Source: Rhina ancylostomus
Taxonomy: Eukaryota
Assembly (NCBI GenBank): GCA_030265395.1
Contig: JARFYF010000059.1
Span: 18,406,207-18,470,206, forward strand
Length of the DNA: 64,000 nt
Direction: 5' to 3'
The number at the start of each line of letters is the position of its first letter. Positions within the stretch are counted from its first letter, which is position 1. Below, piece by piece: positions 55,709 to 61,357 of this stretch. The notes under the pieces were generated by a model. The model saw nothing but the letters and a program-made list of their open reading frames with translations. It did no database searches and was not told where the DNA came from. The translations under genes were made by a program, and so were the position numbers.

Positions 55709-55959
55709 CTTTTCCTTCTTTGGTCTTGGCTTTCCTTAGAGGGGCTGGAGGCTGTACAGGGGGCGGCACCTGAATTGGTACGGATGGAGCCACGATNNNN
55801 NNNNNNNNNNNNNNNNNNNNNNNNNNNNNNNNNNNNNNNNNNNNNNNNNNNNNNNNNNNNNNNNNNNNNNNNNNNNNNNNNNNNNNNNNNNNNNNNNNNN
55901 NNNNNNNNNNNNNNNNNTTTGACATAGGGATTTTTGGATTTTTCTTGGCAATGAGTGGC
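55709..55959 (-). CDS. CHD5: CHD5 exon (~exon 5), CHDNT; interrupted by N-gap 55797-55917
   Basis: attag|PLIAKKNPKIPMS...IVAPSVPIQVPPPVQPPAPLRKAKTKEGK(G)|gtaata. Confidence 0.88.
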
Positions 55960-58199
55960 CTAATGGAGAATAGAGGATACAACAATGAACATTGTATTTA
56001 AGGTACTTAGATAAACTGAAGGTAACAATTGAGCACTAACAATTTTCAAAATAACTTGCACTTACATAGCACCTTTCATGTAATTAGGTGCCTCAAAGCA
56101 TTTCACATGAGCATTACCAGATCAAAATTGACACAGATAGTGAGGAATAATGACAGTGAAATTCTTATATTGCATTACACAGGCTATTCAGTCTAACTGG
56201 TCCAATCCAATGTTTATGCTTCTTCAGAGCCCCTATCCAGCACAATCAATTCATCCTTCTCATTCCTTCACCCAGGTGCTTATCCAGCTTCCCCTTAAGT
56301 ACAGTTGTGGGCATGCTATATTGGCGCCAGAAGTGCAGCGACACTTGCGGGCTGCCCCCAGAACACTATGCAAAAGGATGCATTTCACTGTGTGCTTTGA
56401 TAAGATATCTTTATTAGTCACATGTACATCAAAATGTACATGTGACTAATAAAGAAATCTTATCAACTTATTGGCTCAATTACTCCTGTGATTCTGAGTT
56501 CCACCCTCTCACCATTCACTGGGTGAACAAGTGTGTCCTAAATTCCTNNNNNNNNNNNNNNNNNNNNNNNNNNNNNNNNNNNNNNNNNNNNNNNNNNNNN
56601 NNNNNNNNNNNNNNNNNNNNNNNNNNNNNNNNNNNNNNNNNNNNNNNGTTTGTCCTAAATTCCTTCACTTGGTCAAATAGGTAGATTTAAAGTAGCAGAG
56701 AACAGCAGTTTTCCAAACCTGGGGTCACAACCCAATCTGAGTTTACAAAAACACCTGACAAGTATTGTAATGCATTTTTATGACATTGACTGCCTCACTT
56801 CAGGGTCAGAGAAAAATTCTGCTCTTAAACCAAATCAAACAAAGCAAAAGTTTAGGAAATAGCGGAGAGAGAATTAGGAGGAAAATTCCACAGATTAGAA
56901 CTAAGACAGGCCTGGTGATAACAGAGCAATAAAAATCAGATCTGCGCAAGTTGCCAGAGTTAGAGGATTTCAGGCCCTGAGGTGTTGTAGGGCTGGAGGA
57001 CAGTACAGAGAAAGGGAAGTTTGAGGGCATGCAGGAATTTAAAAAGAAACATGCACATTTTAAAATCAAAGCACTGCTGGATCAGGAGCCAGAAGGTGAG
57101 ATGATATATGACCTAGAGCAGGTGCAAGGTGGAATAAGGCAGCAGAGTTTAGATGAGTTCAGATTTGTGCAGGATTGAGTGCAGTCGGCCTGCCAGCAGC
57201 ACAGTGGAATGGGTGATACTGGAGTTAACAAAAACGTAGGTAGGGGTTTCAACAGAAACAGTGTTTGTCCTATTCAATATTCACTTTTCAATCCTCTACC
57301 AATTTCTGGGGTACAAGTCATTGGCACCATTCAGAAACTCAAAAAGAAATAGGTGACGCCCCTGAGTTATCTCAAGTGCAGGTGGGCTGGTTCAGCACTG
57401 GGAATATCACCAAGCAGTGGGAAAGGAAGGAGAGGTGAGGTGGGGGAGAAAAGGTTAGGGATGAAGGAGAGAGGTTTGGGGAGGAGAAAGAGGAGAGAAG
57501 AGGGATGGGATGAGGGAACATTACATTAATCGGGGAAAATAATTTCCACGCTACCATTCCTGTTTAATTTAATGGAAAGTCTCGCTTGACAAAGATCAAG
57601 GATACATTATTGAGATTCTATAACGACTAAAAGAGAAGCTCAGACAATGAGTTTTCTGTGGCAAATGACTCACCAAAAGCTTTCCACAAGCTGTTTGACA
57701 GAACACACTTCCCCTACCTGATCAGAGGAGCTCCAACACCAATGAAGCTCAACACCATTCAGGACAAAACACTTGTTTAATTAGCAAGCTGAATAGTCAC
57801 TCCCTCTACCACCCATACACCATGGCTGGCGTGCACACCACCTACAGAATGCATTGCAACAAGTCAGCAAGACTTAGTCAACAACATCCACTTCCCACAA
57901 GTGAATTAAAATACCCTCCTGAAGTGGTGACCTTACCACCAAGAGAAGTTTGTGGGGGGGAGGCAGGAAATAGCAGGATAAAAGTGTTACAACCTGCAAG
58001 TTTCCTTCTAGTCACGAATCATCCTGACTTCAGAATTTATTTTTCAAAATCTTGGAGCTCCCTACCCAACAGCACCTTGGAAGTGCCCTCACTTTGTAGA
58101 TTAGGAAGCTGGTTGCAAACTTTTAAATGTTCAGTTAGGGTTTTAACATACAGAAGTGTCCCAAAACACTTCACAGGAGGCAGAAAGATTAAATTATTA

Positions 58200-58447
58200 A
58201 ATTTTTTAAATTTGATTTACAGCGTGGTAACAGGCCCTTCTGGCCTAACGAGTCCACGCCACCCATTTTAAATCTCAAATTAACCTATCCGTACGTCTTT
58301 AGAATGTGGGAGGAAACCGGAGCACCCGAAGGAAACCCATGCAGACAAAGGAGAACGTACAAACTCCTTACAGACTGCGACGGGAATCGAACCCTGATCG
58401 CTGGTGCTGTAATAGCATTGCGTTAACCGCTATGCTACCGTGCCGCC
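58200..58447 (-). mobile_element. tRNA-derived V-SINE (HE1-like), comparatively young
   Basis: Minus strand: ggcggcacggtagcatagcggtt (box A), gttcgattccc (box B), V-core gggtgctccggtttcctcccacattc; many CpGs retained. Confidence 0.8.
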
Positions 58448-58631
58448 TGAGACAAACAAGGAAATATTAAGAAGGGTGACCAGTAGTTGGTCAGAGGATT
58501 TTATAACAAAATATTATGAAAAGCCTTGGGGTGCATGACAACAATGATATGGCAGCCCATCTCATTCAGCCCATGGATAAGATGTTGATTCTCTTCCAAC
58601 AGGCCACTGCTCTTTCCCCACAGCACTACAG

Positions 58632-59545
58632 ATATTGTACCTCCAACTTTTTACCCTGTACGTCAACGATTTGGATGATGGAGTAAATGGTTTTGTGGCT
58701 GAGTTTGCGGATGACACCAAGATAGATGGAGGAGTAGAGAGTACTGAAGAGTCAAGAAGGTTGCAGAGAGACCTAGATAGTTTAGAAGACTGGGCAAGGA
58801 AATGGCAGATGAGATTCAATGTTGAAAAATGTGCAGTTTTGCTCTTGGAAACATAAATAAACGGGCGGATTATTATCGATAAGGGGACAATTCAAAGTAC
58901 ATAAGTACAAAAGAACTTGGGGGTACTCGTGCTGGATATCCTAAAGGTTAGCCACCACGTCGGATCGGTAGTAAGGAAAGCGAATGCTATGTTAGCATTA
59001 TTTTCGTGATATAGTGTATAAAAGTAAGAGAGTGTTGCTGAAAATCTACGGGGCACTGGTGAGGTCTCATTTGGAATACTGTGTACAGTTTTGTGCCCCA
59101 TATCTTAGGAAGGTAGTGCTGATGTTGGAGAGATTTCAGAGGAGATTTACGAGTATGGTTCCCGTAATGAAAGGGTTGACATATGAGGAGCTTTTGTTGG
59201 CTCTTGGACTGTACACACTGGAGTACAAAAGAATGAGAAGGGACCTCATAGAAACATTTTATTTTAGCCAGAGGGTAGTGAACTTATGAAATTCCTTGCC
59301 AAGTGCAGCAGTGGAGACCAGATCACTGGGATCACTGGGAACGTTTAAGGAAGAGATAGACAGATATCTAATTTGTCAAGGTATCAAGGGATGTGGGGAT
59401 AACGCCTGAAAGTGTTTTTTCCTCTTGACTCCCTCCACTTCTCCTTTCTCATTTCTTTTTTCCCCTTTTCTTTGGAGCAGATTCGTTGGGCAGAATGGCC
59501 TATTTATGCTCCCCTATCTTGTGATCTTGTGAATTGTAATCTTGT
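58632..59545 (+). mobile_element. 5'-truncated CR1 LINE (RT core to 3'UTR)
   Basis: LFTLYVNDLDDGVNGFVAEFADDTKI...WQMRFNVEKC and LVRSHLEYCVQFCAPYLRK..LERFQRRFT; tail ttgtgatcttgtga. Confidence 0.92.
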
Positions 59546-59626
59546 CCACTGAATGTTGATTAAGAATTTTGATATTCTTTGAGTTAAAACGTTTAATGTT
59601 GTTGACACTTTCTGTTCCCATGGAAG

Positions 59627-59753
59627 ATGTTCAACAGAAACACAAAGAGACTCAGCGGGGACAGACTGAAACACTGAGAGTGAACACGATCCTGATGAGG
59701 GAGAAGGTGAAGGTTTTCCAGCTGGTTGATCGATACACTGAGCTCACGGTCAT
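59627..59753 (+). pseudogene. Fragment of an NLR (NACHT-LRR, NLRP3/NLRC3-like) exon, pre-NACHT FISNA-like segment
   Basis: Acceptor ...ttctgttcccatggaag| then DVQQKHKETQRGQTETLRVNTILMREKVKVFQLVDRYTELTV, which matches my recollection of batoid NLR proteins; cut by a 100-N gap. Confidence 0.65.
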
Positions 59754-59853
59754 NNNNNNNNNNNNNNNNNNNNNNNNNNNNNNNNNNNNNNNNNNNNNNN
59801 NNNNNNNNNNNNNNNNNNNNNNNNNNNNNNNNNNNNNNNNNNNNNNNNNNNNN

Positions 59854-59971
59854 TCTCTTCCTACCCCCCCCCCCAACTTCTCCTTTCTCATTTCTTTTTC
59901 CCCTTCCACTGGAGCAGACTCGATGGGCTGAATGGCCTACTTCTGCTCCCTTATCTTGTGATCTTGTGAAC
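59854..59971 (+). mobile_element. Second CR1 3'UTR end
   Basis: Paralogous to ~59437-59533 (cttctcctttctcatttcttttt...tggagcaga..cg.tggg..gaatggccta..t.tgctccc.tatcttgtgatcttgtgaa). Confidence 0.8.
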
Positions 59972-61135
59972 TTTGTATCCAATACCCTTTAAATTTCAGT
60001 AGCAAGTCTGTTGCCATCACTCTTTCAGATGGCAAACCATGGTCTGAAATGTAGTCTGTTCAAAAAAAAACTTTTCCTCATTTTCCCTCCAGTTCTTTTA
60101 CCAAGTATTTTAAACTTGACCTGTTACTTTGAAGTAGTAACCATAGGAAGGGAACTGTACTGAGTGGGACCACCAACAATGGAAGAAAGGGAGAAAAACA
60201 AGGAGAGACAAAGCCATCAAGCTGAAATGTTATATTTGTCCCACAGACACTGTTAATCTGAGTATTTCCAGTATTATCTATTTTTATATCAAATATCCAA
60301 CATTCACATATCTTACTTTTATAGAGAAGTATTGTTTTCAGTGGCAAAGGGTTTGATAAACAGAGGACATACCTAAAGTGATATGAGAAAATCTCTTCTT
60401 TTAATTTATACAGAGAATATCGTGTTCTTAAACACTATGGCTGAAAGGTTGGTGAAAGGAGATTAAACAGTAACAACCAGATCTAGAATTAGATAAACGA
60501 AAAAAACTTGAGTTATGGGGTAAGAGCAGGAATACAATTAATTGAATAACCCTGTCAAACACCCTGCTCAGGCACAAAGGACTGAATAGAATCTTTCTGT
60601 GCTGCACCATTCCAAGTTGTACAAATGGATAGTTCACAACCCCACCTCATATAGACAAAACAAAGGAAATCAACACACTTTAATTCTAGAGAGTACTTAC
60701 ACTTAGAATCTTTGCTGGCACCAAAATGTAACTAACATTTCATTCCAATGAACAACCAGCTCTCCTATTAAGACACCCTGAAGATGCAGCAAAGACCTTT
60801 AACTGAACCCTTTAACAATGTAAAGAAAGATTGATCCTGCCAGTAACTGTTATTCATACACATCCAATGAACAATTCACTGTGTCAGAACCACAAGGTAT
60901 GTGAGGTATCACATGGGGCCTAGAAGTGTATCTAATGCTTATTACGTAGATTGGATTTGACTCAGACTTCTGAAATGAACTACATTTGGTTTTCATTTAA
61001 TAAGATCAGCACAGAACTGCATGGAAAATCTCAGCAACATGGCACTGTAATAGGATACAACAGCACAGGCAAGTCAAAACAAAAATAATCCTTTTTTTAA
61101 AAAAATGATTGTTTTGAAATATTTTTAACCAATTA

Positions 61136-61357
<222 letters not shown>

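What the first reader, a model, noticed from the sequence alone, without database searches (positions are those of the whole stretch)
58632..59971. NLR (NACHT) immune-gene fragment sandwiched between two CR1 3' ends inside a CHD5 intron
Seen, in order on the plus strand: truncated CR1, its 3' tail, ~80 nt of intron-like DNA, an AG acceptor (59625-59626), an open 127-nt segment DVQQKHKETQRGQTETLRVNTILMREKVKVFQLVDRYTELTV, a 100-N gap, and a second diverged CR1 3' tail. Recalled: this peptide matches the pre-NACHT segment of the greatly expanded NLRP3/NLRC3-like family of rays. Inference, two alternatives: (a) CR1-mediated 3' transduction or duplication carrying NLR exon pieces, a possible mechanism for NLR dispersal in batoids and the most novel reading of this window; (b) a chimeric contig that crossed from this CR1 into an NLR locus. 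The adjacent gap and duplicated CR1 tail make (b) at least as likely. A weak ttgta..tccaa match at both outer flanks could be a decayed TSD.
Basis: partly seen in the sequence, partly recalled or inferred. Interest (0 to 1): 0.7.

Follow-up and report, generated by a model that had tools for sequence, protein, structure and literature searches.

The report
Misjoined CR1 copy carrying NLR scrap
A scrap of an immune gene really is in the sequence beside a jumping-gene copy, but it likely belongs to another locus and was likely pulled into this intron by an assembly error, because the same two-copies-around-a-gap pattern recurs at other copies of this jumping gene.

Summary
The parts are there: a 5'-truncated CR1-type LINE (58647-59532), 94 nt of NLR intron plus 127 nt of the NACHT exon (59533-59753), a 100-N gap, and a second tail 85% like the first. 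A relative has the empty site (joint 58644/59969, two studies), and a 6-bp repeat AACTTT flanks the unit, so this intron holds one insertion. The composite is probably not real. Among 161 pieces of this LINE family, 9 pairs show two different copies overlapping in element coordinates; all 9 have a 100-N gap between them and none is gap-free. In 7 of 7 checked, the outer ends pair across the gap; mirror-image and tail-less forms also occur. No donor copy was found, and 0 of 38 other NLR loci carry this LINE nearby. Best reading (0.8): the contig switched from the resident copy into a paralog inserted in an NLR intron elsewhere. No read bridges the gap, so real recombination or capture keeps about 0.17. 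The scan earlier noted two other gene pieces inside CR1s in this genome; this artefact may bear on them (untested).

The parts
55960..61151 (-). Host intron of a CHD3/4/5-type gene, most likely CHD5
   Evidence: Flanking exons read from sequence; chromodomain exon best PDB match CHD5 77.6 bits vs CHD4 71.4; an ICMT exon lies about 90 kb beyond the window (CHD5-ICMT linkage in human is recalled). No CHD3 chain was listed, so CHD3 was not compared.
58645..58650 (+). Left copy of the 6-bp target-site repeat AACTTT (last 4 bases also match the LINE)
   Evidence: Joint 58644/59969 with 6 letters fitting both sides in X1 and X3
58647..59532 (+). 5'-truncated, decayed CR1-type LINE (end of RT frame, 3' UTR, tail A); likely a mosaic of the resident copy (5' part) and a paralog (rest)
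   Evidence: RVT_1 E 1e-06, 29.0 bits, just under the 29.6 cut-off; best paralog 88%; stops and frameshifts
58753..58825 (+). Stretch without private substitutions; candidate switch point (inferred, not located)
   Evidence: other contigs break here (element positions 138, 170, 172); change-point permutation p = 0.10
59251..59260 (+). Site of an internal deletion of about 120 bp
59533..59626 (+). 3' end of an NLR intron, joined directly to tail A
   Evidence: 84-88% to five paralogs that have no LINE at this point; exact X11 contig 59515-59640 (only 18 letters on the LINE side)
59627..59753 (+). First 127 nt of an NLR NACHT exon (pre-NACHT segment)
   Evidence: 40 of 55 candidates scored in own genome; paralog frame continues into PF05729; last 77 bp identical to paralog L010
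59754..59853 (.). 100-N placeholder gap of unknown true size
   Evidence: 100-N gaps inside this LINE family stand for -383 to +732 bp of element in 22 measurable cases
59854..59969 (+). Tail B: 3' end of the LINE copy that belongs to this intron
   Evidence: Abuts the right target-site repeat; 1 private change in 94 columns vs 6 in 97 for tail A
59969..59974 (+). Right copy of AACTTT

Best explanation
This intron holds one CR1-type insertion between two AACTTT repeats, and the NLR scrap inside it is likely an assembly misjoin: the left contig likely crossed from the resident LINE into a paralog that sits in an NLR intron elsewhere, followed that paralog's tail and flank, and stopped in the repeated NACHT exon. 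Shown: the empty site and 6-bp repeat, the NLR identity, the two different tails, and the recurrence of the pattern at gaps. Inferred: the switch itself, its place (probably 58753-58825), that the gap hides about 730 bp of the resident copy, and that the donor is an ordinary NLR gene or pseudogene with an intronic LINE whose other parts were not assembled.
For: (1) Of 161 distinct pieces of this family, 12 neighbouring pairs run backwards in element coordinates; 9 are different copies (75-95% alike), 2 are same-copy overlaps, 1 has no shared stretch. All 9 have a 100-N gap between them and none is gap-free, while 53 of 112 tails have any gap within 400 bp upstream. (2) Four of them have this window's layout, LINE-tail-foreign DNA-gap-second 3' piece, among 76 tails with at least 1.2 kb in view. 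(3) In 7 of 7 checked the outer ends pair across the gap: split older repeats rejoin in L204 (9 collinear hits vs 0 for tail 1) and L205 (16 vs 0), and 6-7 bp repeats match in L206, L207, L053, L239, L259 (read by eye; L093 and L242 not checked). (4) Mirror forms exist, where the right contig carries the foreign copy (L239, L053), and 5 of 50 bodies run into a 100-N gap with no tail after it. (5) No second copy of the filler was found in 3 of 3 searched (this window; L204; L205, best 85%), as expected for moved rather than copied DNA. (6) L181 has the predicted uncorrupted form: break at element position 170, restart at 903. (7) The contig ends in 77 bp identical to another NLR paralog.
Against: No read or contig bridges the gap or the candidate switch, so the misjoin is not seen directly. 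The donor's upstream half was not found: two searches return the same five intact loci, and 200 kb of the C79 cluster shows none, though a 9,612-N gap lies beside the two nearest paralogs. The longest exact match to any fetched paralog inside the LINE is 40 bp. The gap style (14 of 100 N and 3 of 10 N in 264 kb) resembles Supernova, which uses k = 48 and joins read-pair paths on 200-base overlaps and writes 100 N for pair-bridged gaps (PMC5411770, passages and section 17); that should resist such switches, and the assembler is only inferred. The younger-ends signal is weak (p = 0.10). Real tandem near-copies might themselves attract gaps. Control loci were picked by likeness to this copy, not at random.
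Confidence: 0.8

Rival explanations
1. Real ectopic recombination: a break in the resident LINE was repaired by copying from a paralog in an NLR intron, synthesis ran past that paralog's tail into NLR sequence, and the end was rejoined to the resident tail.
For: Predicts the same anatomy: intron-containing filler, two tails, one target-site repeat, ends closer to the family majority than the interior (4 of 179 vs 31 of 434 private changes). It could also give mirror forms.
Against: Needs about 1 in 20 copies to have done this (4 of 76), every rejoined end to fall in or beside a 100-N gap (9 of 9), and the donor to be lost or collapsed in 3 of 3 cases.
Confidence: 0.1
2. Real retrotransposition-based capture: reverse transcription primed on a CR1 tail copied an unspliced NLR transcript that held an older CR1, by read-through or template switch, and inserted it here in one event.
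For: One target-site repeat encloses the whole unit and the relative has the empty site. Template switching is reported for several LINE clades including stringent ones, and tripartite chimeras are known (PMC4476161, passages). The tail A/NLR joint is in X11 contigs.
Against: No source element with this flank; 0 of 38 NLR loci carry the family nearby; it does not explain why the 5' end is a same-family LINE in each control case, nor mirror forms, nor the gaps. Tails A and B differ by 15%, so they were not copied recently from one RNA.
Confidence: 0.07
3. Two independent neighbouring insertions plus a separate NLR fragment.
For: Opposite-orientation neighbours of this family occur (2 loci).
Against: The relative's contigs join 58644 to 59969 directly and the repeat pairs the 5' end with tail B, not tail A.
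Confidence: 0.03

Closest known systems
Repeat-induced misjoin in a short-read or linked-read assembly (general knowledge; gap conventions from PMC5411770)
   Same: Switch inside a high-copy repeat, run into a paralog's flank, stop at another repeat, placeholder gap, duplicated repeat end.
   Different: The outer ends remain correct, so a perfect target-site repeat and an empty orthologous site make the artefact look like a captured cargo. I found no paper describing this exact form (listings only).
LINE 3' transduction (L1; recalled)
   Same: Element, tail, downstream flank, one target-site duplication around all.
   Different: No source element; the unit ends in a second, different LINE tail; continuity unproven. 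A search for CR1 + transduction + flanking sequence + shark returned 0 papers.
Template-switch and tripartite LINE chimeras (PMC4476161, passages)
   Same: Several templates inside one target-site duplication; reported for stringent LINE clades.
   Different: Those partners are mostly U6 snRNA; here the filler is intron-bearing genomic sequence and the key joint is a gap.
Expanded NLRP-related NACHT genes of cartilaginous fishes (PMC8455134, passages)
   Same: The fragment belongs to a multi-copy NACHT family (38 other loci fetched); nearest Atlas clusters are chordate NACHT/FISNA proteins named NLRC3- and NLRP3-like.
   Different: Orthology with the whale shark expansion was not tested; the window holds only 127 nt of exon.

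Membership tests
NLR (NACHT-LRR) gene family | NACHT domain | tested here: met
   By homology only: paralog L003 frame has PF05729, E 5e-37. The window's own 127 nt stop before the domain and have no Pfam match above cut-off.
NLR (NACHT-LRR) gene family | C-terminal LRRs and intact gene | not tested
   Not in the window; LRR exons of paralogs were not examined.
CR1-clade LINE | Reverse transcriptase remnant, 5' truncation, short tandem-repeat 3' tail, short target-site repeat | tested here: met
   RVT_1 E 1e-06; octamer tail in 39 paralog ends listed; AACTTT repeat.
CR1-clade LINE | Placement in the CR1 clade by RT phylogeny or repeat library | not testable with these tools
   No repeat library on hand; the label is recalled.
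LINE 3' transduction | Source element with the same downstream flank | tested here: not met
   None in own-genome searches; only the best 40 candidates are scored per search and NLR clusters have large gaps.
LINE 3' transduction | One target-site duplication around element and cargo | tested here: met
   a misjoin inside the element predicts the same.
LINE 3' transduction | Physical continuity of cargo with both flanks | tested here: inconclusive
   No bridging contig in the four runs laid.
Repeat-induced assembly chimera | Pattern recurs at gaps and not in gap-free sequence | tested here: met
   9 of 9 different-copy pairs have a 100-N gap; 0 gap-free.
Repeat-induced assembly chimera | Reciprocal donor remnant | tested here: inconclusive
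   Tail-less class exists (5 of 50) but this locus's own donor half was not found.
Repeat-induced assembly chimera | Spanning reads contradict the assembly | not testable with these tools
   Only short contigs of public runs were available.

The most novel reading that the evidence does not exclude
A CR1 family in this lineage really swaps in the tail and downstream flank of other copies, by homology-guided template switching or one-sided gene conversion, at about one copy in twenty, and so scatters pieces of genes, here an NLR intron and NACHT exon start, into unrelated introns.
Probability: 0.15. Interest if true: 0.6.

Novelty: not a real feature. Interest (0 to 1): 0.12.

Why it matters
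If the best reading holds, there is no biology here beyond two ordinary LINE insertions. The practical value is a warning: in this assembly several percent of copies of this LINE family appear to be chimeras that keep perfect target-site repeats, so 'gene piece inside a CR1 beside a 100-N gap' should be treated as suspect, including the two earlier notes from this genome. If the composite were real, it would show a stringent LINE family moving flanking gene sequence at a high rate, a route to exon dispersal that my searches did not find described for CR1. Even then this copy would be a dead, antisense, NACHT-less scrap.

Tried and rejected
Contig depth: in X11 the interior is tiled by exact contigs at 6-22x while both flanks and both LINE ends are thin or uncovered. 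This looked like a boundary, but the tool warns that holes and depth are no finding, so it is not used. X11 may be the assembly's own sample and is not independent. X12 (organism C) gave no readable verdict on presence or absence. Orphan contig C38918 as the missing exon continuation: rejected, it overlaps C65726 (L013) by 77 exact bases and the window by only 28, and does not group with the window's intron subfamily in a rough tree of 30 of 38 loci (8 dropped for under 400 aligned bases). The argument that a 100-N gap means a short, pair-bridged gap: rejected, such gaps hide up to 732 bp. The argument that no run of 48 identical bases allows a switch: weakened, 58753-58825 has only family-polymorphic differences. 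Sister copies of tail B or the interior: none (best 95% and 91%); a 17-nt pattern gave 2 other matches, unrelated and at control level. The idea that the two outer flanks are halves of an older repeat: no hits for the left flank in the fetched loci, left untested. Matching tail-less loci to fillers: only an 86% repeat match. Microhomology at the tail A/NLR joint is not diagnostic: 35 of 39 paralog tails are also followed by A. PMC7757076 and PMC2881922 (passages) gave nothing that bears directly.

Full report
Observation. The window is G000:C59:18406207-18470206. Between 58647 and 59969 the plus strand reads: a 5'-truncated LINE with a reverse transcriptase remnant and an internal deletion of about 120 bp, its tail (A, ending 59532), 221 bp of NLR sequence, 100 N, and a second tail (B) that is 85.5% like the first over 110 bp. 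The unit lies antisense in a 5.2-kb intron of a CHD3/4/5-type gene whose best PDB match is CHD5, with an ICMT exon about 90 kb away (the human linkage is recalled).

The NLR piece. A search of the own genome scored 40 of 55 candidates. Five loci share the intron as well as the exon; the window differs from them by 12-16% in the intron, as they do from each other (13-18%), so none is a recent donor. In L003 the frame continues into NACHT (PF05729, E 5e-37, from residue 100), and the Atlas places it with chordate NACHT/FISNA clusters. The window covers only the first 42 residues. NLR homology begins exactly where tail A ends. An exact X11 contig covers 59515-59640; it has 18 letters on the LINE side, under the tool's 31 for a bridge, but it agrees with a real LINE insertion 94 bp upstream of a NACHT exon somewhere in this genome. 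Of 38 other NLR loci, none has this LINE family in the DNA fetched; one has a 65% match to an older element 1 kb upstream, and seven had under 500 bp upstream in view. The dispersal idea has no genome-wide support.

One insertion site. Contigs of organism A from two studies (X1, X3; flanks about 93-97% alike) join 58644 to 59969, with 204 letters on the shorter side and six letters that fit both sides. These are AACTTT at 58645-58650 and 59969-59974. The 5' end at 58647 and tail B are therefore the two ends of one insertion. At this point I gave a real composite 55%. But an error inside the element leaves the ends untouched, so this result does not separate the readings.

The control that changed the reading. 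I asked how other copies of the family look in this assembly. Among 77 distinct loci, four had the window's layout with non-NLR filler of 595-900 bp. Sixty more stretches gave 113 distinct tails, 76 with at least 1.2 kb downstream in view, and the same four, plus one exact duplicate across a gap. A wider test on 161 distinct pieces found 12 neighbouring pairs that run backwards in element coordinates: 9 between different copies (75-95% alike; the 95% case could be allelic, and L242 could be independent), 2 same-copy overlaps, 1 without a shared stretch. All 9 have a 100-N gap between them. With 53 of 112 tails having a gap within 400 bp, 9 of 9 is unlikely by chance: about 0.1% at 0.47 each, and about 2% for 8 at 0.6 each; these are rough figures of mine, and the loci were chosen by likeness to this copy. 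In 7 of 7 checked, the 5' flank pairs with the end beyond the gap. In L239 and L053 the foreign copy is on the right of the gap, the mirror of the window. Five of 50 bodies end at a 100-N gap with no tail after it, against 23 complete, 12 with gap and tail, 4 with two tails, 1 at a large gap and 5 tail-less without a gap; 8 more had too short a view. The fillers of L204 and L205 have no second copy, nor has the window's interior.

Where the switch would be. Private substitutions number 4 in 58647-58825 (179 bp) and 31 in 58826-59259 (434 bp); the split was chosen after looking and a permutation test gives p = 0.10 (200 of 2000). Tail B has 1 in 94 columns, tail A 6 in 97. The stretch 58753-58825 has only family-polymorphic differences, and 3 of 30 left-hand contig breaks in the family fall there. 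L181 shows the expected clean form, break at element position 170 and restart at 903; the window's tail B restarts near 925. The contig ends in 77 bp identical to NLR paralog L010. This is consistent with a switch but does not prove it.

What speaks against. Nothing bridges the gap. The donor's upstream half is absent from two searches and from 200 kb of the C79 cluster, which however is 16% N and has a 9,612-N gap beside the two nearest paralogs. The longest exact match to a fetched paralog in the LINE is 40 bp. The 100-N and 10-N gaps with short exact overlaps resemble Supernova output; that program uses k = 48, joins read-pair paths on 200-base overlaps and writes 100 N for pair-bridged gaps (PMC5411770: passages, section 17, and code passages in one supplement), which should make such switches rare. 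The assembler is inferred from gap style only, and here 100-N gaps hide up to 732 bp.

Rivals. One-sided ectopic repair from a paralog gives the same anatomy and could give mirror forms, but needs a high rate, lost donors and a gap at every rejoined end (0.10). Tail-primed capture of an unspliced NLR transcript has precedent in kind (PMC4476161, passages) but no source locus and no account of the mirror forms (0.07). Independent insertions are excluded by the empty site (0.03).

Literature seen. Passages: PMC5411770, PMC4476161, PMC8455134 (an NLRP-related expansion in whale shark), PMC2881922, PMC7757076. Listings only. One search returned no paper. L1 3' transduction and one-sided repair are cited from recall.

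Verdict. Interest is low (0.12). The lasting point is that a perfect target-site repeat and an empty orthologous site do not prove capture in this assembly. Two earlier notes on this genome describe gene pieces inside CR1s; they prompted the control, and I did not test them.

Noticed in passing
L204, L205, L206, L207, L053, L093, L239, L242, L259: Copies of this LINE family with two different copies on either side of a 100-N gap; probable chimeras of the same kind, some mirror-imaged.
   Followed up: partly
L230, L232, L234, L235, L245: LINE bodies that run into a 100-N gap with no tail after it; possible donor-side remnants.
   Followed up: partly
L204:5592-5672: About 80 bp of other sequence joins tail 2 directly without a gap; it looks like an inverted piece of another LINE family (by eye), either a nested insertion or a second wrong path.
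   Followed up: no
G000:C79:570001-770000 (L288-L307): NLR cluster with five NACHT exon pieces, two tandem members of the window's intron subfamily, and a 9,612-N gap beside them; one exon lacks its 5' part at an 820-N gap.
   Followed up: partly
L002-L030, L103-L126: Large NACHT family, at least 38 loci; many have early stops, several are open for 490-540 codons. Upstream introns fall into many unrelated groups.
   Followed up: partly
L013 and L103: Unplaced contigs C65726 and C38918 overlap by 77 exact bases and probably form one NLR gene.
   Followed up: partly
window 58919-59028: X11 holds two contigs here, one exact and one with 4 differences; allele or near-identical paralog, unexplained.
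   Followed up: no
window 58270-58445: Very high-copy short repeat (SINE-like by its depth in all four runs) just left of the insertion; present in part in organism A's contigs was not determined.
   Followed up: no
window 45163, 56548; L131-L136: Several 100-N gaps have exact overlaps of 8-43 bp between their sides, so they are placeholders for negative gaps.
   Followed up: yes
L139:3798-4148 (-): ICMT exon (PF04140, E 4e-22) about 90 kb beyond the window.
   Followed up: no
window 55797-55917: A 121-N run inside a coding exon of the host gene; frame is kept across it.
   Followed up: no
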